Shown here piece after piece: positions 1,091-64,000 of a stretch of DNA of 64,000 nt (positions within the stretch are counted from its first letter, which is position 1; the number at the start of each line of letters is the position of its first letter). The position numbers and the translations under genes were made by a program. Under the pieces are notes generated by a model. It did no database searches, was not told the origin of the DNA, and saw only the letters and a program-made list of their open reading frames with translations. This DNA comes from Octopus vulgaris (taxonomy: Eukaryota): contig OX597833.1 of assembly GCA_951406725.2 (NCBI GenBank), positions 53,444,001-53,508,000 of the forward strand, in the 5' to 3' direction.

Positions 1091-1749
1091 GTTTTGTAGT
1101 GCCCGGCGAAGTGGTAGAGGGGTGGTGGTAATCCAGAAGAAATACCACCGCTTGGTAACTAAGCACACACATTAAACGCGCTACATACATCTACATTACA
1201 TATTATCATACATGCATGCACGCATACATACGTACACATTACATACATGTACATGCACATCTACTCTGTAAATATGAGGCAACGGGAGGTGGTCAATTGG
1301 CCAGCTAGAAATAGCAGCCTAATTCCTCCCTCAGATCACGCATTATACACTTAAACAAAAAACAAAGGAAACAAACAAAGAATATACAAGACAATGTGTT
1401 TAGTCCATCATCATCACCGTCATCATTATCTCAGTAGGCGATGTTTTTTTTTCTGGAGGGTGGTGGCACTTTAGGGTTAGCTATTTATATGCCTGTAAAA
1501 AAACTCAACAGCTGGCCCTGGCGGCACACTCACTAACTAGCTACACCGCCGCACCTTCGTCATCATCATCATCATCATTGTCGTCGTCGCCAGCGTCTAC
1601 TTTTCTATGCTTGCATGGGTCAGACGGAATCTGGCCATATCTATTTGGCTGGATGCCCTTCCTGTCGCCAACCCCTCACCTGTTTCCAAGCTTTAGCTGT
1701 GTTTTTTTATTTATTTATTTCTTCATGGAAGACTTCAAACAAATGACAT

Positions 1750-1793
<44 letters not shown>

Positions 1794-1917
1794 TTGAATT
1801 CTATTAGAGGTTGTTGTGTTAACCTCATGAAGGGATGGTCTCATCCAAAGAAATACTGGTTCAATAATTAGTGTTTCGGAGGAATAAATTTCTTTAAAAT
1901 AATAGGTCTATATATAC

Positions 1918-2298
1918 TCTTTACTCTTTTACTTGTTTCAGTCATTTGACTGCAGCCATGCTGGAGCACCGCCTTTAGTCGAACAAATCGACCCCATGAC
2001 TTATTCTTTGGAAGCCTAGTACTTATTCTATTGGTCACTTTTACTGAACCGCTAAGTTACGGGAACATAAACACACCACCATCGGGGGGACAAACACAGA
2101 CACACAAACATATACACACACATACATATATATGTATATATATACATATAAAGATGGGCTTCTTTCAGTTTCCATCTACCAAGTCCACTCACAAGGCTTT
2201 GGTCGGCCTGAGGCTATAGTAGAAGGTGACACGCAGTGGGACTGAACCCGGAACCATGTGATTGGTAAGCAAGCTACTTACCATACAGCCACTCCTAC
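1918..2298 (-). mobile_element. tRNA-derived SINE family A
   Basis: Head taggagtggctgt(g/a)tggtaag (A box) and ggttcagtccc (B box), internal (TA/TG)n, (AGAGTAAA) tail. More than 15 copies in the window. Confidence 0.85.
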
Positions 2299-3345
2299 GT
2301 ATAATCTATATTCTTATAAAAGAAGAAAGACAAAAAGGAGATTAGGAAGTTAATAATTATTTATTATTAACAGCAAATTAATCATCAGCCCTTACAGCTG
2401 TTTCGATTGATACTCAATAAATATTAATTAGATATTAAATTTATATAACCTGAGCATAATATCTTCAGAGTGGCACCTTGGGCAAGTGTCTTCTACTATA
2501 GCCTCGGGCCAACCAAAGCCTTGTGAGTGGATTTGTTAGACGGAAACTGAAAGAAGCCCGCCGTATATATGTATATATGTATATATGTATATATATATAT
2601 ATGCGTGTGTGTGCTTGACAACCGATGCTGGTGTATTTATGTCCCCGTTACTTAGCGGTTCGGCAAAAGAGACCGATAGAATAAGTACTGGGTTTACAAA
2701 GAATAAGTCCCGGGGTCGAGTTGCTCGATTAAAGGCGGTGCTCCAGCATGGCCACAGTCAAATGACTGAAACAAGTAAGAGAGAAAGAGAGGGGAAAAAT
2801 ATACCCTTGGATGTTTTATATATGGTCATGGATTCATTATAGTAGACTGAACGAATAGATTTGTTCTGTTTTGGTTCATAAGAAATATAAGGAAGAGGAG
2901 AAGAAGAGGTAAAGAAGGCGCATGGCTCAGTGGTTTGAGTGTCAGGCTCACAATCATGGGGTAGTGAGTTCCATTCCTGGATCAGGCTGTGTGTTGTGTT
3001 CTTGAGCAAGACACTTCATTTCATGTTGCTCCATTTCACTCATCTGTAGAAATGAGTCATGACTTTACTGGTGCCAAGCTGTATCAGCCTTTGCCTTTCC
3101 CTTGGGTAACATCGTTGGCATGGGGAAGTTGTTTGGGGGGACAAACACACACACATGTATATATACATATATACGACGGGCTTCTTTCAGTTTCTGTCTA
3201 CCAAATCCACTTACAAGGCTTTGGTCAGTCTGAGGCTATAGTAGAAGACACTTGCCCAAGGTGGTATGCAGTGGGACTGAACCTGGAACCATGTGCATCA
3301 TAAGCAAGCTACTTACCACACAGCCACTCCTAGGCCTACATTATA

Positions 3346-3391
<46 letters not shown>

Positions 3392-3438
3392 TTAGAGACA
3401 AAACCACTGTAAATTTGGATTTATTCCCTAATATTTAT

Positions 3439-3482
<44 letters not shown>

Positions 3483-3953
3483 ATACATATATACATATAT
3501 ATATATACATATGTATATATTTGAAGGGCAGAGCCACTATGTGGTCGGCCGTATGCTAGAAGTAGATCACCTACGATCAAACTACAAAGAAAGGATTGTT
3601 CACATATATATATATATACACACACACAATGTTTCTTCATTTTCCTTCAAGTTCTTAAAGAATATATTTTAAAAGTATGTTTTAAAAAAAACCTGTTCAA
3701 TTTCTGATTATGACATTTCACTCTACTTTCGTCTTATTACTGCAGTCATTTCCAGTGAAATACATGCCTAGACAGGCAAGGCAGGTATTTAAAATATAAA
3801 CTAATGTTTCACAGTGAACAGAACACTTGAGAAGTTTTAGCGATAAGAGGTGATATGATAGGAGGAGATTGTAAGTTATAAAGATAACTGAATTTAATCT
3901 TGATAGTTATTTTTATGGTTATCTGTCAAGAAAACATAGCAACTTCTACATCC

Positions 3954-4040
<87 letters not shown>

Positions 4041-4278
4041 ATGTGTATATATATGTGTGTGTGTGTATATATATATATCACCAGGATCACCAGGACCGAC
4101 CAGGCTATCTGATGTTGCTACACATCGCTGGTCACGATGCGCTTCGCATTGTTTTAGCCTTCAAATGATGCCACCCCACTGGATAAGTGAGCTGGCCAAC
4201 AGAAGAAAGAGTGACCAGCGGTGTGTGGCAACATCTGATAGCCTGGTTGGTCACATGATCACGTGATATATATATATA

Positions 4279-4510
4279 AGGCGGTGAGCTGGCAGAAACG
4301 TTAGCATGCCGGGCGAAATGCTTAGCGGTATTTCGTCTGCTGCTATGTTCTGAGTTCAAATTCTGCCAAGGTCGACTTTACCTTTCATCCTTCCGGGGTC
4401 GATAAATAAAGTACCAGTTACGCACTGGGGTCGATGTAATCGACTTAATCTGTTTGTCTGTCCTTGTTTGTCCCCTCTATGTTTAGCCCCTTGTGGGCAA
4501 TAAAGAAATA
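4279..4510 (+). mobile_element. SINE family B (Nin/MESC-like core; other copies about 6966, 10190, 28950-29360 -, 34200, 47336-47583 -)
   Basis: ggcggtgagctggcagaaacgttag...gagttcaaattc...gccttt catcc...ggtcgataaa...agtaccag. Confidence 0.8.
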
Positions 4511-5889
4511 ATGTGTGTATGTGTGTGTGTATGTGTGTATTTGTGTGTGTGTGTATGTGTGTGTGTGTATGTGTGTATTTGTGTGTGTGTGTGTATGTGT
4601 GTATTTGTGTGTGTGTGTGTGTGTATTCTTATTAATATTTAGCAGTAGCAACAGAGTAACTCAAGGGCCAATATATATGTATGTCAGAGAATCCTACTTT
4701 CAAAGACATTAGAATTTTGTACTTCTTTGAAATTATTAAAAGTCTCAAAACTTCTGGAATGCACCAAGCATTGCCCATAGCAGACTGTTTCCACTACCCC
4801 ACCTCTAAAAATGTTGCTGACTCAAAACCACCACCATCACTGGATAAACATGTATGTTTGATATTTATGGCTAGTAAAAAAAATATTTCAGAATTTAAAT
4901 CTTTATTTTAACGGTGATCTTGATCTTCTGACGAGGCTTTGTTTCTTTTCAATGCCGAGAAAGAGAAAAGGTGGAAGGCAAGAGAGGTTGAGGAAATTTC
5001 AAAATTTCAGGTCAGTGCCACACAGAAATGTCAGAAAGACTAAGGTCATGGACGGGGGGGGGGAGAATTGGAGGTAGGGGACGGGGTCAAAGATTTAGGT
5101 GTACTGGGAGAGTAGGAATGATCACAGGTAGTTTGATTAGTCTAGGCCTGACCTCACTTACGTCACTTACAGGAATGCCATGTAATATGAAACTCTGAGA
5201 AAATATATATAAAAAAAAAATAAAACGTATTCTTTAATTCAATTGGTTTTGTTGCATTATACTCTTTACTCTTTTACTTGTTTCAGTCATTTGACTGTGG
5301 CCATGCTGGAGCACCACCTTTAGTTGAGCACATCGACCCCCAGGACTTATTCTTTTTAAGCCTAGTACTTATTCTATCGGTCTCTTTAGCCGAACCGCAA
5401 AGTACGAGGGACGTAAACACACCAGCATCGGTTGTCAAGCGATGCTAGGGGGACAAACACAGACACACAAACCTATACACACACACATACATATATACAT
5501 ATACATTTATACGACGGGTTTCTTTCAGTTTCTGTCTACCAAATCCACTCACAAGGCTTTGTTCTTATTCGGCCTGAGGTTATAGCAGAAGACACTTGCC
5601 CAAGGTGCCACGCAGTGGGACTGAACCTGGAACCATGTACTAGGCTTACATAGAATAAGTCCTGGGGTCGATTTGCTCGACTAAAGGCAGTGCTCCAGCA
5701 TGGTCGCAGTAAAATGACTGAAACAAGTAAAAGAGTAAAAGAGTAAGCGTTTTGCCTGGCATGCGAACAATTATGCCAGCTCACTCTCTTTTTATCAACC
5801 CCACAAAAGGATGAATGGCAAAGTCAGCCTTGCAGAATTTGAACTCAGAATGTAAAGATGGACAGAATGCCGCTATGGATTTTCCCCAA

Positions 5890-7277: not shown

Positions 7278-7482
7278 GGGGGAGAATTCACGAAAAAAAC
7301 AAAATGTGAAGACAGGTGGTGTAGAAAACAAACAGATGTTTAATGCTCGGGAATTGAAAAAGTCTTTTACGTTTCGAGCTTACGCTCTTCCACAGAAAGG
7401 GACACAGAAAAAACAAGGAGAGAAAAAAAATGTGTAGTGGCTACCGGTCTATCATGGCGTATGCATATATATATATATATGT

Positions 7483-8180: not shown

Positions 8181-8470
8181 AGCTAAATGCACATACATTA
8201 TGTTAAGTCTAAACTGTGTTATATAACTTATAGCAGTTTAGCTAGAGCATGTTCAGTCTGAGATGGCCCTTAAATTTACAGACTGTCCTCCACCTGGGCC
8301 CCAAAGCCTTTACAGACTTAAACAACAGACCCAAATGTGCTACCATCCTAAAAATGCCACCCAGGGCATCATGCCCCATAACCTTGCCCTCACCTCATCA
8401 CCCCCATTGTTCCCCCACCCACCGCCCCCGTCGTCCACAACCCCCACTGGTTCTCACCTTACCCCTACAG

Positions 8471-8632
8471 TTATGCTGCCGATGACTTTTACATTCAAGT
8501 TCTGGTACTTAAAACAGTCGTCGTGAGGGGTTTCTGTCGAAACACGAATGCTTTTAAAGCAGACAGTTTTGCACCAAGGGACCAGAAGCCACTTCAGGAA
8601 GGATTAATATCCAAGGGGCTACGCAGTAATAG
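8471..8632 (+). CDS. Possible upstream exon of the same gene (YAADDFYIQVLVLKTVVVRGFCRNTNAFKADSFAPRDQKPLQEGLISKGLRSN)
   Basis: Acceptor cccctacag, strong donor ag|gtatga, protein-like open frame in unique sequence. This donor (phase 2) does not match exon 11050 (phase 1); the weak donor a|gtaata at 8626 would. Confidence 0.5.
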
Positions 8633-9017
8633 GTATGACAATGCATATGCAACCGTTCCATGAGAATGTCAGATAGTATTCAGCTGTATGTTTGTGACAA
8701 ATTCTGGAGAAGAAACTTCCTTTCTTTCTTATATATTCTTATCATGTAAGGATACCATTCAATGCTTGTGTGTCAGTTACCACTTTACAGCATGCACTGG
8801 GTGCATGCACTGGGTGCATGTACTGAGTGCCACAGGCACTTGTGTGGTTGCCATGAAGCTTACAAGGGTGCAGACCCTGAGAGAAGTGACTTTATGCTAA
8901 GAGATGAGGAGTGGGATTAAAGTATGAGAGACAAGTCCAGGGCAGAACAGATTTCTTGCTATATAGTGGGGGCTGCAAGGCAACTCACATTTTAGAAAAT
9001 ATGTACATATGTACATA

Positions 9018-9556
9018 TAGGTGCAAGAGTGGCTGTGTGGTAAGTAGCTTCCTTACCAACCACATGGTTCCGGGTTCAGTCCCACTGCGTGGCACCCTGG
9101 GCAAGTGTCTTCTGCTATAGCCTCGGGCCGGCCATAGGCGCAGAAGTGGCTGTGTGGTAAGTAGCTTGCTTACCAGCCACATGGTTTTGGGTTCAGTCCC
9201 ACAGCGTGGCATCTTGGGCAAGTGTCTTCTGCTATAGCCTCGGGCCGACCAATGCCTTGTGAGTGGATTTGGTAGACGGAAACTGAAAGAAGCCCGTCGT
9301 ATATATGTATATATATATATGTGTATGTATGTATGTGTGTATATGTTTGTGTGTCTGTGTTTGTCCCCCTAGCATTGCTTGACAAACGATGCTGGCGTGT
9401 TTACGTCCCTGTCACTTAGCGGTTCGGCAAAAGAGACCGATATAATAAGTACTGGGCTTACAAAGAATAAGTCCCGGCGTCGATTTGCTCGACTGAATGC
9501 GGTACTCCAGCATGGCTGCAGTCAAATGACTGAAACAAGTAAAAGAGTAAAAGAGT
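9018..9556 (+). mobile_element. SINE family A with duplicated head
   Basis: Head 9018-9130 is repeated at 9136, followed by a full body. Confidence 0.85.
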
Positions 9557-9867
9557 ATATGTATGTATGTATGTATGAATGAATGACAGCAGCAATTCAT
9601 TGATTCTGATTCAGTCTAAAAGCCATGTTCCTCAAAGCTTCGAAGAGGAACCTGCAGCAATTCAATAATATTACAATAATACAATACAATACAATGTACA
9701 ATAAAATAAAAATCGGACATAACTTTCTGGACACCCTGTATATGTATATAGCCATATATACATAAATATACATATATGTATGTGTGTGTGTGTGTGTGTG
9801 TTTGTGTGTGTGAGTGTGTGTGTGAGTGTGTGTGTGTGTTTGTGTGTTTGTGCGTGTGAGTGTGTGT

Positions 9868-9956
<89 letters not shown>

Positions 9957-9958
<2 letters not shown>

Positions 9959-10163
9959 CAAGGGGGAGTACTGAAAAGTTCCTGGTTTTAAGGGTATCGT
10001 GAAAGGCCTGGCTGGAGGCCTAACGTTCTGTGTTCTTTTACAGGGCTTAGAAAAAGCTGAAAGACCATTGCAATAAGTGTGTGAATCTGAGAAGGGGATA
10101 GGTTGAATAAAATCATAATTAAATGATCCTCTTGTATTTTCTTTTACCCAAAGCCAGGAACTT
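9957..10163. mobile_element. mariner-type MITE with truncated right TIR
   Basis: tacaagggggagtactgaaaagttcctggtttt ... aaagccaggaactt. Confidence 0.6.
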
Positions 10164-10670
10164 ATATATACATATAAATACATATATAAAGGCGGTGAGC
10201 TGGCAGAAACGTTAGCATGCCGGGCGAAATGCGTAGCCGTATTTCGTCTGCGGTTACGTTCTGAGTTCAAATTCCGCCGAGGTCGACTTTGCCTTTCATC
10301 CTTTCGGGGTCGATAAATTATGCACTGGGGTCGATGTAATTGACTTAATCCGCTTGTCTGTCCTTGTTTGTCCCTCTGTGTTTAGCCCCTTGTGGGTAGT
10401 AAAAAAACATATATACATATACAACCAAACTTACACACACACATACACACACACACACTCTTTTACTTGTTTCAGTCATTTCATTGTGGCCATGCTGGAG
10501 CACTTCCTTTAGTCGAATACATTGACCCCAGTACTTATTCTTAGTAAGACTAGTACTTATACTATTGGTCACTTTTGCGGAACTGCTAAGTTACAGGGAC
10601 GTAAACACACCAGCATCAGTTGTCAAGCAATGTTGGGGGGACAAACACAGACACACACACATACATATAA

Positions 10671-10768
<98 letters not shown>

Positions 10769-11049
10769 GTATATATATTTATATATATATATATGTATAT
10801 ATATGATGGGCTTCTTTCAGTTTCTGTCTACCAAATCCACTCACTAGGCTTTGGTTGGCCCGAGGCTATAGTAGAAGACACTTGCCCAAGGTGCAAAACT
10901 GGGACTGAACCCAGAACCATGTAGTCCGTAAGCAAGCTACTTACCACACAGCCACTCCTACGCCTACATACAAACTTTTTATTTGTAAATATAATTTTGC
11001 TTATATATAATTTGTGTGTATAATTTTGCTTTTGGTCCATCTTTTACAG

Positions 11050-11214
11050 TATCTCAACTTAAAAAGAAGAAGCAAATCGACAAGGAAGTTGAATACCCTG
11101 TTGCATATGGACGCTGGATGAAACCCAAATGCCTGGTGTATGCAAAGTTTGACTTTCTGTGCATCGACGCAACAGTGTTTTCCACCAAACATCCAGACAG
11201 AGCTGAAGAACTTG
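11050..11214 (+). CDS. Internal coding exon of retropepsin-like aspartic protease gene (SQLKKKKQIDKEVEYPVAYGRWMKPKCLVYAKFDFLCIDATVFSTKHPDRAEEL)
   Basis: Acceptor ttttacag at 11042-11049, donor g|gtaagt at 11215. 165 nt, phase 1-1, open and non-repetitive. Phase matches the next exon (G+AA=Glu). Confidence 0.8.
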
Positions 11215-11335
11215 GTAAGTTAATTAGAACAGCTCACTTTGGCTTAGTACGTGGGTATGGACATGTGCGTGCATGTGTGCGTGTACATGTATTTTGTGTA
11301 TATGTGTGTATGTATATATATATATATATATATAT

Positions 11336-11536
11336 CAGTGCTTTTCAAACTTTTTGCTGGAGCGGAACCCCAAGGAAACATTCCACTGGCTCAAGGAACC
11401 CCTGTGCAATAATTTAATAGTCTTATGCACACATTTCTGCACAGGAGAATTAAAAATTACTGCCGATTTTAGCAGTTTTGTAACTTCTTGCGGAACCCCT
11501 GGACTGTACTCGCAGAACCCTGGTTGAAAAGCACTG
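11336..11536. mobile_element. Second copy of the same hAT MITE, opposite orientation
   Basis: TIR cagtgcttttcaa / ttgaaaagcactg, inserted in (TA)n. Confidence 0.85.
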
Positions 11537-11655
11537 ATATATATATATATATATATATATATAAAGGGAAAGTTTACGAAAATAAATAAAAGACGAAGGC
11601 AGGTGGTGTACAAAACAAACAGATGTATTAGTATAGCGCTCAGGAATAGAAAAAG

Positions 11656-11693
11656 TCTTTTACGTTTCGAGCCTACGCTCTTCGACAGAAAGA
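11656..11693 (-). ncRNA. Minimal hammerhead-like motif with CUGUCGA core (related copies at 7364-7399 -, 18433-18470 -, 40122-40157 +, 47674-47709 -)
   Basis: Minus strand reads UCUUU CUGUCGA A GAGC GUAG GCUC GAA ACGU A AAAGA. Confidence 0.55.
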
Positions 11694-12050
11694 TACACAG
11701 AAAAAAAAACAAGGAGAGAAACAAGGTGAGAAAAAGATATATATATATACACACACATCCCACAGTGGTGCTCCAGCAGGGCTGAAACAAATAAAAAAAT
11801 ATGCATGTATATATATATATATATATATGTATATGTGTATGTATATATATATGTATATGTGTATGTGTATGTATATATATATATATGTATATGTATATGT
11901 ATATGCCTGCTCACTTAGCCAGCGGGGTGGCATCATTTGAAGGCTAAAACAACGCAAAGCGCATTGTGACCAGCGATGTGTAACAACATCTGATAGCCTG
12001 GTCGGTCAAGGTGATATGTATTTGTATATATCTATCTATCTATCTATCTA

Positions 12051-12093
<43 letters not shown>

Positions 12094-12094
<1 letters not shown>

Positions 12095-12275
12095 GGAAAT
12101 GGGATTTGCCCACTCTATAGGAACAAGTCATGGAACACTATAGAAAGGACAAAAAAGAAAATAGGGAAGGCCAACTCTTGGTATGATAGCCATGAATACC
12201 AGAGTGTCATGTTCGTTGACACCACCCCTGGAGGTGAACTGGCGTACCACTTTAGAAGGACCCTAGATAAACTTA

Positions 12276-12279
<4 letters not shown>
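12094..12279 (+). mobile_element. Penelope-like element ORF fragment (region C-terminal to RT)
   Basis: CPLYRNKSW...NSWYDSHEYQSVMFVDTTPGGELAYHFRR resembles the PLYR..W / SVLFVPxTPGxEL segment of PLE proteins. Inserted in (TA)n. Confidence 0.65.
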
Positions 12280-12319
<40 letters not shown>

Positions 12320-13232
12320 ATATATACACACATATATACATATATATATATATATGTGTGTGTATATGTGTTGGTTTGTTTATCTGATACCCTTCCTGAT
12401 GCCAACCACTTTACAAGGTATGCAGGGTGCTATTACATGGTGTCGCAGGGGCACTTTTACATGGTGTCACACAGGTGCTTTTAACATGGTACCACACGGG
12501 CGTTTTTATGTGGCACAGCATGGGCCCTTTTGCATGGCACCAGAGGGGCCAGTCTTTACACTTCTGCTGTGGAGCATGAGTCTTCTTGGGTACAGCAAGG
12601 TGCCAAGCATCCCAGTCCTTTGTCATCTCACCTGAAAGGTTCAGCATTCCAAAGTTGTTCTTCAGTTCTACATCCAGTCATACTTTTATTTTATTTTAGG
12701 AAGGCCTCCGTGACGGTGGCACGTAAAAAGCACCATCCGAGCGTGGCTGTTTGCCAGCCTCGTCTGGCACCTGTGTCGGTGGCACGTAAAAAGCACCCAC
12801 TACACTCACGGAGTGGTTGGCGTTAGGAAGGGCATCCAGCCATAGAAGCACTGCCAGATCTGACTGGAGCCTGGTGCAACCTCCTGGCTTCCCAGACCCC
12901 AGTTGAACCGTCCAACCCATGCTAGCATGGAAAGCGGACGTTAAACGATGATGATGATGATGATGAAATTAAGGGGGTCAATAAGTTATAAATGATTCCA
13001 TGAAGGGGTTAGTAATATAAGAAGTATATTGACCCCTGCTCTTCACAGTTAGGTAACCTGCTACAAAACACCAATAAGTGTTCCAGCCAATGAAGTAGTC
13101 TCCTTACGAGACAGCTAGAAATAACTGGACACTGACCTTTTTATTTGGCTCTCACATTAACTGGACATTGACCTTATCTCTCCGCCACTGTCTTTGTTTG
13201 TCCATGTATTCTCTCTCTCTCCTCCATACATG

Positions 13233-13269
<37 letters not shown>

Positions 13270-26116: not shown

Positions 26117-28126
26117 CAGCAGCTTTCAACTGGGGTCCAAATGGCCCGTGAGAGTCCATATTGTGTGCAAGGGTCCATATAAGATTTTGGTGGGGTCCAC
26201 GCAACAAAATTGTAAATTAGGGGTCCACACAACAAAATTGTAAATCAGCAGCTTTCAACTGGGGTCCAAATGGCCCGTGAGAGTCCATATTGTGTGCAAG
26301 GGTCCATATAAGATTTCGGTGGGGTCCACGCAACAAAATTGTAAATTAAGGGTCCACACAACAAAATTGTAAATTAGGGGTCCACACAACAAAATTGTAA
26401 ATCAGCAGCTTTCAACTAGGGTCCAAATGGCCCGTGAGAGTCCATATTGTGTGCAAGGGTCCATATAAGATTTTGGTGGGGTCCACACAACAAAATTGTA
26501 AATTAGGGGTCCACACAACAAAATTGAAAATTAGGGGTCCACACAACAAAATTGTAAATTAGGTGTCCACAAAAGTATTTTAAGGGCCCCTGAAAAAATT
26601 TTGCTTTTGATTTATGTATTGGTATGTATTGCAAGAAACAGCTGGGTTTCTTTCTTTAATGTTTTACAGAGTTCAAACTACACGAGTTAATATGTGGGTC
26701 CATATAAGATTTTGGCTGGGCCCACACAACAAAATTGTAAATTAGGGGTCCACACAACAAAATTGTAAATTAGGGGTCCACACAACAAAATTGTAAATTA
26801 GGGGCCCACACGACAAAACTGTTAATTAGGGGTCCACAAAAGTATTTTAAGGGCCCCTGAAAAAATTTTGCTTTTGATTTATGTATTGGAATGTATTGCA
26901 AGAAACAGCTGGGTTTCTTTCTTTAATGTTTTACAGAGTTCAATCTACACAAGTGAATGAGTGGAAAGCAAAATAGGAATTTTTAAAGAAGTTTCTATAA
27001 AACTAGTTTTTAAACATCGAATGGTTATGATAGGGTCCACCAGAATAAAATAGTAATCAAAGGGGTCCAGAGACCAGAAATAGTTGGGAACCCCTGCTTT
27101 AGATGTATGTATTGAAAGAAACAGCTGGGGTTTTTTTTCTCTTACATTTTACATAGCTCAACCTACACAATAGAAATTTTGAAAAGAGTTTCTATAAAAC
27201 TAGTTTTTAAATGTCAAATGGCTATGAAGGGTCCACCAGAATAAAATAATAATGAAAGGGGTCCAGAGACCAGAGATAGTTGGGAACCCCTGCTTTAGAT
27301 GTATGTATTGGTATGTATTGAAAGAAACAGCTGGGGTTTTTTCTCTTACATTTTACATAGCTCAACCTACACAATAGAAATTTTGAAAGGAGTTTCTATA
27401 AAACTAGTTTTTAAATGTCAAATGGCTATGAAGGGTCTACCAGAATAAAATAATAATGAAAGGGGTTCAGAGACCAGAAATAGTTGGTAACCCCTGCTTT
27501 AGTTGTATGTATTGGTAGGTATTGAAAGAAACAGCTGGGTTTTTTCTCTTACATTTTACATAGCTCAACCTACACAATAGAAATTTTTTAAGGAGTTTCT
27601 ATAAAACTAGTTTTTAAATGTCAAATGGCTATGAAGGGTCCACCAGAATAAAATAATAATGAAAGGGGTCCAGAGACCAGAAATAGTTGGTAACCACTGC
27701 TTTAGATGTATGTATTGGTATATATAACAAGAAACAGCTGGGTTTTTTTCTCTTACATTATACATAGCTCAACCTACACAATAGAAATTTTGAAAGGAGT
27801 TTCTATAAAACTAGCTATTAACCCTTTCGTTACTGTATTTATTTTGAGATCCTCTGTATTTCTTTCAATTACTTTAAATATTACAAAGAATTTAGTAAAA
27901 TAACTTGGCTATCATTAAGCTAGTGTCAGGAACATAAATTGTGATTAAGGTTTTGTGGAAGATTTTAATTCAAAACTTATGAAGACAAGACATTTGTACT
28001 CAGAGCCAGGGCCGGTTTTAGCCAGGTTGGTAACGAAAGGGTTAAACATCAAATGGCTACGGGGGTCCACCAGAATAAAATAAAAATCAAGGGGGTCCAT
28101 ATGTAAAAAATAGTTGAGAAACACTA
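26117..28126. mobile_element. hAT-like MITE expanded by internal tandem duplications
   Basis: Start cagcagctttcaact occurs three times. ggggtccacacaacaaaattgtaaatt ~28-bp subrepeats and ~205-bp terminal repeats ending gttgggaacccctg. Confidence 0.65.
27822..28041. mobile_element. piggyBac-type MITE nested in the hAT-like repeat
   Basis: TTAA|ccctttcgttac ... gtaacgaaaggg|TTAA. Confidence 0.88.
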
Positions 28127-40060: not shown

Positions 40061-41276
40061 CCATGATAGATCGGTAGCCACTACACATATTTTTTTTCTC
40101 TCCTTGTTTTTTTCTGTATCCCTTTCTGTAAAAGAGCATAGGCTTGAAACGTAAAAGACTTTTTCTATTCCTGAGCGTTATACTAATACATCTGTTTGTT
40201 TTATACACCACCTGTCTTTGTCTTTTGTTTTTTTCGTGAACTCTCCCTATATATATATATATACACACATACATATATATAGTTGTCTCTCTATCTCTCT
40301 TCTTCTTTATCTTGCTATCTATCTATCTATCTATCTATCTCTATTCGCTCACTCTTTCTAGGTAACATAGATCCAACAGATTTAAAGAATTGAAGATTTG
40401 CTAGTGAATTGTAGGAGCAAATACATTTAAAGTTTGATCTCATATCATTATGCAATTTTTTTTTTAATGCTTTTTCCAACATTAATCTTTGAATAAGCAA
40501 ATGGGAGTGTGACAACTAGCATGCCTTCTCTCAATGTGCCTTAAAACAAAACATTTGTTGAAGGTGAATTATCTGGTGGTCAGATTTATGCACCCCAAAC
40601 ATGCAATTTACAATCACTGAACAATTTCATATTTAAAAATTATTTTCATTTGAACCATTTGGCTAAATAACATTAGCATTTATACATTTACCTATTTTTT
40701 TTATTTTATCAGTTTTTATTATGATTTTTATATCTTTACTTCATTTTGATTTTTTTTTTTTTTTTTTTTTCTCACCTCATCACCCATTCTATCATAGGTG
40801 GGCTGTTTATCCACTTTTGTTTTCATAAACTTGGACGTTTTTAAAAATTGTTGATGCATGTTGGCGACTAGAAAGGTCATCGACTTGTATAAACAATTTG
40901 TCATGAAGCAAACAGCTGAAATTTTTATCAACCAGGAAGGAAGGCAGCTCAGGCTTGCTTGCATATATGGTGTCTTTATATATATATATATATATATAAT
41001 ATAAGGAATGGCCCTAATAGGCCATTTGACTCACTAGAAAGAGCAGCCAAACTCAAACAGCTAAATAGTTGTAATTCTGAAATTGAAAGAGAAATAAAAG
41101 CATTTACCAACTATTTAGCGGTTTGAGTTTGGCTGCTCTTTTCTAGTGAGTCGAATGGCCTAATAGGGCCATTCCTTATATTGTTGAATGTATATTATAT
41201 AGTCTTTGACTATCTTTTCTTTCTCACTAGACCGCTGGTAGCGGAGAATTTTTTCTAGAATTTTTTGCTACCCTTA

Positions 41277-61642: not shown

Positions 61643-61700
<58 letters not shown>

Positions 61701-61812
61701 ATATATATATAGTCAATCCGAAGAAGAACAAGCAAGAAAAAACAACAACGCGAGGATGTGGAACAAGTAGTGTGTTATTGGACGCTCAGGAAAAGGAAAG
61801 AAAAGAAAGAGG

Positions 61813-61847
61813 ATTTGACGTTTCGAGCGGAGCTCTTCATCAGAAAT
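61813..61847 (-). ncRNA. Minimal (Penelope-type) type I hammerhead ribozyme
   Basis: Minus strand reads AUUU CUGAUGA A GAGC UCC GCUC GAA ACGU C AAAU. Stem III is reduced to the palindrome ACGU. Confidence 0.72.
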
Positions 61848-64000
61848 ATAGAGAAAGTCCAAAGAAGGGAAGATGAAGAAAGAAAATCGCCAACGATACT
61901 CAACGATTTCACGTTTTGAGCGGAGCTCTTCATCAGAAATATAGAGAAAGTCCAAAGAAGGGAAGACGAAGAAAGAAAATCGCCAACGATACTCAACGAT
62001 TTCACGTTTTGAGCGGAGCTCTTCATCAGAAATATAGAGAAAGTCCAAAGAAGGGAAGACGAAGAAAGAAAATCGCCAACGATACTCAACGATTTCACGT
62101 TTTGAGCGGAGCTCTTCATCAGAAATATAGAGAAAGTCCAAAGAAGGGAAGACGAAGAAAGAAAATCGCCAACGATACTCAACGATTTCACGTTTTGAGC
62201 GGAGCTCTTCATCAGAAATATAGAGAAAGTCCAAAGAAGGGAAGATGAAGAAAGAAAATCGCCAACGATACTCAACGATTTCACGTTTTGAGCGGAGCTC
62301 TTCATCAGAAATATAGAGAAAGTTCAAAGAAGGGAAGATGAAGAAAGAAAATCGCCAACGATACTCAACGATTTCACGTTTTGAGCGGAGCTCTTCATCA
62401 GAAATATAGAGAAAGTCCAAAGAAGGGAAGATGAAGAAAGAAAATCGCCAACGATACTCAACGATTTCACGTTTTGAGCGGAGCTCTTCATCAGAAATAT
62501 AGAGAAAGTCCAAAGAAGGGAAGATGAAGAAAGAAAATCGCCAACGATACTCAACGATTTCACGTTTTGAGCGGAGCTCTTCATCAGAAATATAGAGAAA
62601 GTCCAAAGAAGGGAAGACGAAGAAAGAAAATCGCCAACGATACTCAACGATTTCACGTTTTGAGCGGAGCTCTTCATCAGAAATATAGAGAAAGTCCAAA
62701 GAAGGGAAGATGAAGAAAGAAAATCGCCAACGATACTCAACGATTTCACGTTTTGAGCGGAGCTCTTCATCAGAAATATAGAGAAAGTCCAAAGAAGGGA
62801 AGATGAAGAAAGAAAATCGCCAACGATACTCAACGATTTCACGTTTTGAGCGGAGCTCTTCATCAGAAATATAGAGAAAGTCCAAAGAAGGGAAGACGAA
62901 GAAAGAAAATCGCCAACGATACTCAACGATTTCACGTTTTGAGCGGAGCTCTTCATCAGAAATATAGAGAAAGTCCAAAGAAGGGAAGACGAAGAAAGAA
63001 AATCGCCAACGATACTCAACGATTTCACGTTTTGAGCGGAGCTCTTCATCAGAAATATAGAGAAAGTCCAAAGAAGGGAAGACGAAGAAAGAAAATCGCC
63101 AACGATACTCAACGATTTCACGTTTTGAGCGGAGCTCTTCATCAGAAATATAGAGAAAGTCCAAAGAAGGGAAGATGAAGAAAGAAAATCGCCAACGATA
63201 CTCAACGATTTCACGTTTTGAGCGGAGCTCTTCATCAGAAATATAGAGAAAGTCCAAAGAAGGGAAGACGAAGAAAGAAAATCGCCAACGATACTCAACG
63301 ATTTCACGTTTTGAGCGGAGCTCTTCATCAGAAATATAGAGAAAGTCCAAAGAAGGAAGATGAAGAAAGAAAATCGCCAACGATACTCAACGATTTCACG
63401 TTTTGAGCGGAGCTCTTCATCAGAAATATAGAGAAAGTCCAAAGAAGGGAAGATGAAGAAAGAAAATCGCCTACGATACTCAACGATTTCACGTTTTGAG
63501 CGGAGCTCTTCATCAGAAATATAGAGAAAGTCCAAAGAAGGGAAGACGAAGAAAGAAAATCGCCAACGATACTCAACGATTTCACGTTTTGAGCGGAGCT
63601 CTTCATCAGAAATATAGAGAAAGTCCAAAGAAGGGAAGATGAAGAAAGAAAATCGCCAACGATACTCAACGATTTCACGTTTTGAGCGGAGCTCTTCATC
63701 AGAAATATAGAGAAAGTCCAAAGAAGGGAAGATGAAGAAAGAAAATCGCCAACGATACTCAACGATTTCACGTTTTGAGCGGAGCTCTTCATCAGAAATA
63801 TAGAGAAAGTCCAAAGAAGGGAAGATGAAGAAAGAAAATCGCCAACGATACTCAACGATTTCACGTTTTGAGCGGAGCTCTTCATCAGAAATATAGAGAA
63901 AGTCCAAAGAAGGGAAGATGAAGAAAGAAAATCGCCAACGATACTCAACGATTTCACGTTTTGAGCGGAGCTCTTCATCAGAAATATAGATAAAGTCCAA
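61818..64000. repeat. 93-bp tandem satellite (at least 23 units, runs off the window) derived from a hammerhead-containing pLTR
   Basis: cggagctcttcatcag at 61828, 61921 and onward. One 92-bp unit near 63350. Confidence 0.95.

What the first reader, a model, noticed from the sequence alone, without database searches (positions are those of the whole stretch)
61710..64000. 93-bp satellite made of hammerhead ribozyme units: many core-mutated copies ending in one intact copy
Seen: on the - strand each unit reads AUUU CUGAUGA A GAGC UCC GCUC AAAACGUG AAAU, so G12 is replaced by A and the triplet is GUG. A GU-rich hairpin (AAUCGUUGA/UUGGCGAUU) follows. The last unit in transcript order (61813-61847) keeps GAAACGUC and continues into pLTR-like sequence homologous to 16270-16440. 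Established: hammerhead-containing satellites occur in newts, schistosomes and Dolichopoda crickets; G12 is catalytic and NUG is not cleaved; minimal hammerheads dimerise through the ACGU palindrome, which is kept in all units here. Inference: an unusually short hammerhead-derived satellite caught at birth from a Penelope end. A transcript would stay multimeric and could cleave at most at the terminal site.
Basis: partly seen in the sequence, partly recalled or inferred. Interest (0 to 1): 0.8.

Follow-up and report, generated by a model that had tools for sequence, protein, structure and literature searches.

The report
Dead-ribozyme minisatellite from a Penelope end
In an octopus genome a 93-base piece carrying a broken self-cutting RNA motif, likely from the end of a Penelope-type jumping gene, is repeated head-to-tail at least 23 times, probably by ordinary DNA duplication at one spot, so it is most likely a silent fossil of a known kind and not a working RNA device.

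Summary
There are 24 hammerhead-like cores at a 93-bp period: 23 with A12 and a GUG triplet, the last intact and followed by a 105-nt tail ending in (TA)n. The window is Octopus vulgaris-like. Short-read contigs show that 88 of the 93 bases come from a very abundant repeat family with a minimal hammerhead. A 5-nt insert 5 nt past the cut site makes the junction and creates the hairpin. The junction is bridged without mismatch in two studies of one organism, at roughly 12-19 times low-copy depth. No bridging contig was listed in three other organisms. So this is probably one young array, not a genome-wide satellite. In the dimer geometry the intact G12 faces GUG and the intact GUC faces A12, so no cleavage in cis is predicted. 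GUG is also common in the parent family. PLE-end-derived hammerhead tandem repeats of 51-972 bp are published, so 93 bp is not unusual. No link to an RT ORF and no transcription were shown. The scan's index had no look-alike; similar dead-passenger and retrozyme notes exist on other octopus DNA. Verdict: new member of a known kind, low interest.

The parts
61848..64000 (-). Tandem array of 93-bp units: 23 core-mutated hammerhead copies (A12, GUG triplet) with spacers; cut by the window end
61813..61847 (-). Terminal intact minimal type-I hammerhead: stem I AUUU/AAAU, CUGAUGA, unpaired A, stem II GAGC/GCUC, G12 at 61824, ACGU palindrome, C17 at 61817
   Evidence: matches the min-HHR description in PMC4209133
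61906..61940 (-). Last internal core (unit 23): A at position 12 (61917, the G of a CpG in the intact copy), G at position 17 (61910)
61900..61904 (-). 5-nt non-parental junction insert; it completes a 7-nt direct repeat (ATCGTTG, 10 nt apart) with the parental flank
   Evidence: parent-family contigs of X4 and X8 leave the window sequence at 61897-61899 (tables 7 and 8); sequence
61883..61910 (-). Predicted 11-bp hairpin created by the junction; it would take up the 3' strand of hammerhead stem I
   Evidence: -8.7 kcal/mol, z -1.76; pairing probability 0.67-0.85 in unit23+terminal, 0.24-0.31 in unit22+unit23
61874..61874 (-). Variable site of the unit (shown for unit 23): 14 A and 9 G across 23 units, interspersed; G is the parental state in a CpG
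   Evidence: parental state from loose-end consensus
61712..61812 (-). Tail of the element, ending 105 nt downstream of the predicted cut site; likely where reverse transcription began
   Evidence: geometry compared with PMC11167929
61648..61711 (.). (TA)n/(CA)n microsatellite at the element end (likely insertion target)
16261..16436 (-). Solo, truncated relative (CCGACGA core, GUU triplet) between (TA)n runs; ends at the same tail position

Best explanation
This is a young tandem array of a 93-bp piece, 88 bp of it from an abundant octopus repeat family that carries a minimal hammerhead (likely a Penelope pseudo-LTR); it probably sits at a single locus, was likely amplified as DNA, and is predicted not to self-cleave. 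Shown: unit anatomy, parentage, junction position, core changes. Inferred step 1: a Penelope-type copy inserted in (TA)n, leaving tail, intact hammerhead and upstream terminal-repeat sequence. Inferred step 2: one microhomology-guided template switch, in repair or during reverse transcription, joined position +5 after the cut site to position -83 with a 5-nt insert, duplicating the segment. The duplicate carried or soon gained A12 and G17. Inferred step 3: slippage or unequal exchange multiplied the junction-bearing unit. The last hammerhead stays intact simply because it lies beyond the last junction. Predicted: a transcript would not be cut in cis, because each dimer core takes its G12 from one unit and its triplet from the other, and every pairing in the array includes A12 or GUG.
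For: Parent-family contigs match the unit up to 61899 and then leave with the same loose-end motif in X4 and X8. A perfect 89-nt contig bridges the junction in X2 at depth 209.5, with the next piece at 328.5, against a median 16.9 for 9 low-depth X2 contigs, a rough 12-19-fold. A perfect 100-nt contig bridges it in X4. No bridging contig is among the 8 longest listed for each of X8, X11 and X13 (longest 48, 58, 46 nt). The A/G site is interspersed with no clustering (11 runs, p 0.42), which needs exchange among units after a mutation and does not fit repeated copying of one template. Dimer assignment: A12 with GUC, G12 with GUG. G12A slows cleavage over 500-fold in minimal and about a million-fold in full-length hammerheads (PMC2553840); GUG mutants of 10 designed hammerheads did not cleave (PMC4191386). 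The cleavage-type folds lie 8.1 (one core) and 20.7 (both cores) kcal/mol above the minimum-energy fold. Local amplification of PLE ends into tandem repeats is the published model (bioRxiv 2026.07.22.740005).
Against: The far end of the array lies outside the window and no genome was available, so single-locus status rests on contig depth, which the tool says is no copy number. Absence in other organisms rests on cut tables (32 of 350 pieces shown). Two substitutions 7 nt apart, fixed in all 23 internal units but not the terminal one, need either two early mutations or a second donor copy; I cannot tell which. The junction falls only 5 nt from the cut site, which could hint at an RNA step. Octopus transposons are mostly unmethylated (PMC9476566), which weakens the CpG-decay reading of A12, though satellites there are more methylated. 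No RT/GIY-YIG ORF was linked to the family (one search found nothing). ViennaRNA does not score the non-canonical core, so the energy gaps are overstated.
Confidence: 0.72

Rival explanations
1. The array was written in one retrotransposition event: the Penelope reverse transcriptase copied the tail and intact hammerhead, then jumped onto a cleavage-dead 93-nt RNA (circle or repeat) and went round it many times. That would make it a retrozyme-like product made through RNA.
For: The unit boundary is 5 nt from the cut site. Units are 99.8% alike apart from one site. A second template would explain why A12 and G17 are in all internal units but not the last. PLE insertion does not need hammerhead cleavage in vitro (PMC11167929). 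Rolling-circle copying is the proposed route for retrozymes.
Against: One template cannot give the interspersed 14 A / 9 G site without later DNA exchange. A dead unit cannot release monomers to make circles. Depth suggests no large dispersed family of this unit.
Confidence: 0.17
2. The array is a conditional ribozyme: A-to-I editing of A12 in an internal unit, or pairing with an intact family transcript in trans, would switch on cleavage at the terminal GUC.
For: Coleoids edit transcribed repeats heavily (PMC9068888, squid data). The core that holds A12 is the one that faces the cleavable GUC, and it can form with the junction hairpin in place. The ACGU palindrome is kept in 24 of 24 cores. 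Inosine at position 12 has been studied as a G12 substitute (cited in PMC2553840; I did not see the rate).
Against: Only the last internal units could benefit, so 23 or more copies are unexplained. Stem I is four A-U pairs, and even intact minimal hammerheads cleave poorly (PMC4209133). The array is outside the one gene mapped in the window, which ends at 25976 on the other strand. It was seen in one organism only, so there is no sign of conservation.
Confidence: 0.04
3. The array is an assembly artefact.
For: It is nearly homogeneous and lies at the window edge.
Against: Short-read contigs of two different studies cross the junction without mismatch, in X2 at high depth, and the units carry an interspersed variant.
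Confidence: 0.03
4. The array is a coding repeat: 93 bp is 31 codons, and two minus-strand frames are open through the unit.
For: Open frames of 557 and 558 codons.
Against: One 92-bp unit shifts the frame. 0 of 8 Pfam hits for the two translations reach the curated cut-off. No longer homologue was found for a 62-residue translation. The sequence is non-coding element end.
Confidence: 0.02

Closest known systems
Non-LTR retrozyme tandem repeats derived from PLE pLTRs (Li, Clavereau, Pollet, bioRxiv 10.64898/2026.07.22.740005; read parts 1-3 of 5, abstract to discussion)
   Same: Tandem repeats whose unit is a PLE terminal sequence with a type-I hammerhead; unit length within their 51-972 bp range; birth by local amplification of a PLE end is their model.
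   Different: Fails their criterion for an active retrozyme (two consecutive complete hammerheads): 1 of 24 cores is complete. Their survey covered 31 vertebrates, 3 insects and a coral, no molluscs.
[quoted passage not shown]
   Same: Terminal unit has the short stem I, unpaired base before stem II, G-C closing pair and palindromic 15.2/16.2 with no loop 3; dimer-dependent by design.
   Different: Internal units carry A12 and G17; stem II is 4 bp; no ORF linked here.
Metazoan non-LTR retrozymes and hammerhead satellites of newt, schistosome, cricket, coral, mussel, axolotl (Cervera and de la Pena 2020, PMC7229834; passages read)
   Same: Hammerhead once per tandem unit, low GC.
   Different: Those units are about 220-390 nt, thousands of copies, self-cleaving and expressed as circular RNA. 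Here 93 bp, probably one locus, cores broken, expression not shown.
Poseidon element of Anolis (Frangieh et al. 2024, PMC11167929; read parts 1-2 of 4)
   Same: Insertion ends lie a fixed distance downstream of the hammerhead (about 85-92 nt from their figures, 105 nt here) in AT-rich targets; cleavage was dispensable for insertion in vitro.
   Different: That is an autonomous element with an RT/GIY-YIG ORF; this is a non-coding remnant.

Membership tests
Minimal type-I hammerhead (min-HHR) | Core CUGANGA ... GAAA ... NUH with stems I and II | tested here: met
   Terminal unit only, 1 of 24 cores
Minimal type-I hammerhead (min-HHR) | G12 and H17 in the repeated (internal) units | tested here: not met
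   23 of 23 internal units have A12 and G17
Minimal type-I hammerhead (min-HHR) | Unpaired base between 9 and 10.1, G10.1-C11.1 pair, palindromic 15.2-16.2 | tested here: met
   24 of 24 cores against the features listed in PMC4209133
Minimal type-I hammerhead (min-HHR) | Self-cleavage as a dimer | not testable with these tools
   Needs an assay; only the pairing geometry was computed
Rfam hammerhead families | Match to a covariance model | tested here: not met
   0 hammerhead families among 6 matches at E up to 10 in 61700-62050
Active non-LTR retrozyme | Tandem repeat with a hammerhead motif per unit | tested here: met
Active non-LTR retrozyme | [quoted passage not shown] | tested here: not met
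   1 of 24 complete; criterion
Active non-LTR retrozyme | The unit is dispersed at many loci | tested here: inconclusive
   Junction depth about 12-19 times low-copy depth in X2 fits one array, but depth is rough and no genome was held
Active non-LTR retrozyme | Expression as monomeric circular RNA | not testable with these tools
   Only assembled contigs were available
Penelope-like element pLTR | Hammerhead in the terminal repeat with a fixed tail ending in an AT-rich or (TA)n target | tested here: met
   Both window copies end at the same tail position in (TA)n; compare
Penelope-like element pLTR | Flanks an ORF with telomerase-like RT and GIY-YIG endonuclease | tested here: inconclusive
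   Upstream DNA lies beyond the window end; collection scans gave two chance bacterial hits; protein search gave nothing
Satellite DNA family | Long, high-copy arrays, often at several loci | tested here: inconclusive
   At least 23 units in the window; depth points to tens of units, i.e. a minisatellite

The most novel reading that the evidence does not exclude
An editing-gated ribozyme: in an animal group with massive A-to-I editing of repeats, editing of A12 in the last internal units restores a general base exactly in the dimer core that faces the only cleavable GUC, so ADAR activity would switch cleavage of the array transcript on.
Probability: 0.03. Interest if true: 0.85.

Novelty: new member of a known kind. 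Interest (0 to 1): 0.27.

Why it matters
As it most likely stands, it is a clean worked example of the published idea that a Penelope end can seed a local tandem repeat, here in a mollusc, with the junction resolved to the base and the ribozyme dead from the start. It warns that hammerhead-looking tandem repeats can grow without any ribozyme activity. The side finding is more useful: non-cleavable triplets and altered cores seem to be amplified in the parent family itself. If that holds in a full assembly, it would support in vivo the in vitro result that Penelope insertion does not need hammerhead cleavage.

Tried and rejected
No whole genome was held, so the other end of the array and other loci could not be searched. 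Rfam over the whole window gave microsatellite-driven matches in the 150 of 230 rows shown, none a hammerhead, and nothing relevant over 61700-62050. A 21-base core pattern gave 1 locus in metagenomes, 0 in viral contigs and 1 in prokaryote genomes. L001 lies in a bacterial-type reading frame and L002 in a bacterial genome, neither with family flanks: rejected as chance. No RNA holder was listed on record. X4 is only guessed to be RNA, so its junction contig (depth 27.5) is used for presence, not expression, and editing could not be read from contigs. A search for longer proteins holding a translation of the element end found none among 66 candidates. My first runs test used the wrong column and was redone. 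Lunse et al. 2017 on PLE hammerhead variants was not held; I saw only its title in a reference list, and it may bear on whether natural core variants cleave. Searches for a description of this array or of octopus PLE hammerheads listed none by title or abstract; the O. vulgaris repeat annotation has 0 mentions of 'ribozyme' in text and supplement. The library lacks most subscription papers. bioRxiv supplements were not seen. PMC3833285 mentioned Penelope only in references.

Full report
Observation. The minus strand from the window end to 61813 holds 24 hammerhead-like cores at a 93-bp period, against none in 100 shuffles. Twenty-three have A at position 12 and a GUG triplet; the last, 61813-61847, has G12 and GUC. 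Of 23 complete units, 22 are 93 bp and one is 92 bp. They differ at one A/G site (14 A, 9 G) and at singletons, 0.2% mean distance without that site. The terminal unit continues into a 105-nt tail that ends in (TA)n. Unit and tail are 79% identical to a solo copy at 16261-16436 that ends at the same position. Rfam does not recognise the motif; the terminal core does meet the published min-HHR features (PMC4209133).

Host. An exon at 25419-25973 is 100% identical to an Octopus vulgaris protein and 97% to an O. sinensis protein. That gene lies on the plus strand and ends at 25976, so the array is outside it. Penelope-like elements make up 6.83% of the O. vulgaris assembly, 190 families (PMC13282606 supplement).

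Parent family and junction. At 85% likeness, 1384-4821 contigs per run lay on 61700-61960 in 4 of 4 runs, from two organisms, so the parent family is very abundant. Its contigs follow the unit up to 61899 and then leave with the same loose-end motif in X4 and X8. On the other side the unit matches the terminal copy for 5 nt past position 17. The unit is therefore 88 parental bases (61812-61899) plus a 5-nt insert (61900-61904). The insert completes a 7-nt direct repeat with the parental flank, and the 5' arm of the hairpin is built from stem I plus this insert. The hairpin is thus a by-product of the junction. That the join was made by microhomology is inference.

Reality, copy number and age. 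A perfect 89-nt contig bridges the junction in X2 and a perfect 100-nt contig in X4, two different studies of organism A; either DNA holder X1 or X2 could be the source of the assembly. In X2 the two array contigs have depth 209.5 and 328.5, against a median 16.9 for 9 low-depth contigs that I picked from the listed pieces (8 of 8, 1 of 8): a rough 12-19-fold, the same order as the 23 or more units in the window. The tool warns that depth is no copy number. Among the 8 longest pieces listed for each of X8, X11 and X13 (organisms B, C, D) none bridges the junction (32 of 350 pieces shown, so this is weak). The copy differs from near-fixed family bases at 61757, 61770, 61771 and 61853 (84-99% other letters in X1; table 3), and the last lies inside the unit. 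The element had aged a little before it was amplified. Young, then, but not at birth.

How the core changes arose. Position 12 is the G of a CpG in the intact copy, and the variable unit site is also a G-to-A change in a parental CpG. This suggests deamination. Against it, octopus transposons are mostly unmethylated, though satellites more so (PMC9476566 passages). Position 17 is not conserved in the family: by summed contig depth G is 14.5% in X1, 3.9% in X2, 0.8% in X4 and 51% in X8, and U4-to-C is 22-50%. G17 may have come in with a donor copy. Contigs one base away from the internal core exist in organisms B-D.

Mechanism. The ACGU palindrome has no loop, so these cores can work only as dimers (PMC4209133; PMC6765202 passages). 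In a dimer each core takes G12 from one unit and its triplet from the other. For the last two units this gives A12 with GUC and G12 with GUG; any internal pair gives A12 with GUG. G12A costs over 500-fold to about a million-fold (PMC2553840 passages), and GUG mutants did not cleave (PMC4191386 passages). The hairpin also competes for stem I (probability 0.67-0.85 next to the terminal unit, 0.24-0.31 in an internal pair). So I predict no cis cleavage; the terminal site could be cut only with an intact partner in trans. The interspersed A/G site (11 runs, p 0.42) fits slippage or unequal exchange after a mutation, not one round of copying from a single template. The last core is intact because it lies beyond the last junction. 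I put this reading at 0.72, an RNA-templated origin at 0.17, a conditional ribozyme at 0.04, artefact at 0.03 and coding repeat at 0.02.

Comparison. Li et al. (bioRxiv 2026.07.22.740005) describe hammerhead tandem repeats derived from PLE pLTRs, with units of 51-972 bp, and propose local amplification of a PLE end; 8 of their 9 tested dimers did not cleave. The array works like that route but fails their test for an active retrozyme. Its tail geometry resembles the Anolis Poseidon element, where hammerhead mutants still insert in vitro (PMC11167929). The Penelope assignment here is anatomical: no RT or GIY-YIG ORF could be linked. Earlier AI notes of this scan list no look-alike sequence and none near this place, but several octopus retrozyme arrays and one dead hammerhead passenger in a satellite; I did not test them.

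Verdict. Real, and a new member of a known kind. The novel reading not excluded is an editing-gated ribozyme: coleoids edit repeats heavily (PMC9068888 passages), and A12 sits in the one core that faces GUC. Nothing shows transcription or editing, and only the last units could gain, so I give it 0.03. Interest 0.27.

Noticed in passing
window 61817, 61839, 61842 (family data from runs X1, X2, X4, X8): The parent family does not conserve the core: by summed contig depth, position 17 is G in 51% in organism B (X8) and U in 86-92% in X2 and X4; U4-to-C is 22-50%. Heavily amplified subfamilies may carry non-cleavable hammerheads. X1 and X2, same organism label, also differ strongly in these shares.
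   Followed up: partly
window 11644-11695, 18421-18472, 7356-7398 (- strand), 40111-40170 (+ strand): A second family of minimal-hammerhead remnants with the same ACGU palindrome region; two of the four have a CUGUCGA core (A6 replaced by U), the other two are more decayed.
   Followed up: no
window 15605-16231: Element between (TA)n runs with a 105-nt direct repeat 362 nt apart and a 121-nt inverted duplication, and a hammerhead-like core at about 15785-15817 on the - strand. Looks like the 356-nt retrozyme-like element noted elsewhere in this genome; not tested.
   Followed up: partly
window 48210-48262 (- strand): Another decayed hammerhead-like core with a short stem III.
   Followed up: no
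window 8263-25976 (+ strand): Gene for a SAM-domain protein with a weak aspartyl-protease-like exon at about 21507-21683 (Pfam below cut-off); exons at 8263, 11049, 21507 and 25419.
   Followed up: partly
window 61713-64000 (- strand): Two reading frames are open through the 93-bp unit (557 and 558 codons); gene predictors could call a spurious repeat protein here.
   Followed up: yes
window 26115-27821: Nested tandem repeats of 28, 129, 157 and 204 bp.
   Followed up: no
window 22759-22937 and 4067-4281: Long near-perfect inverted repeats, probably head-to-head SINE-like copies; possible substrates for RNA editing if transcribed.
   Followed up: no
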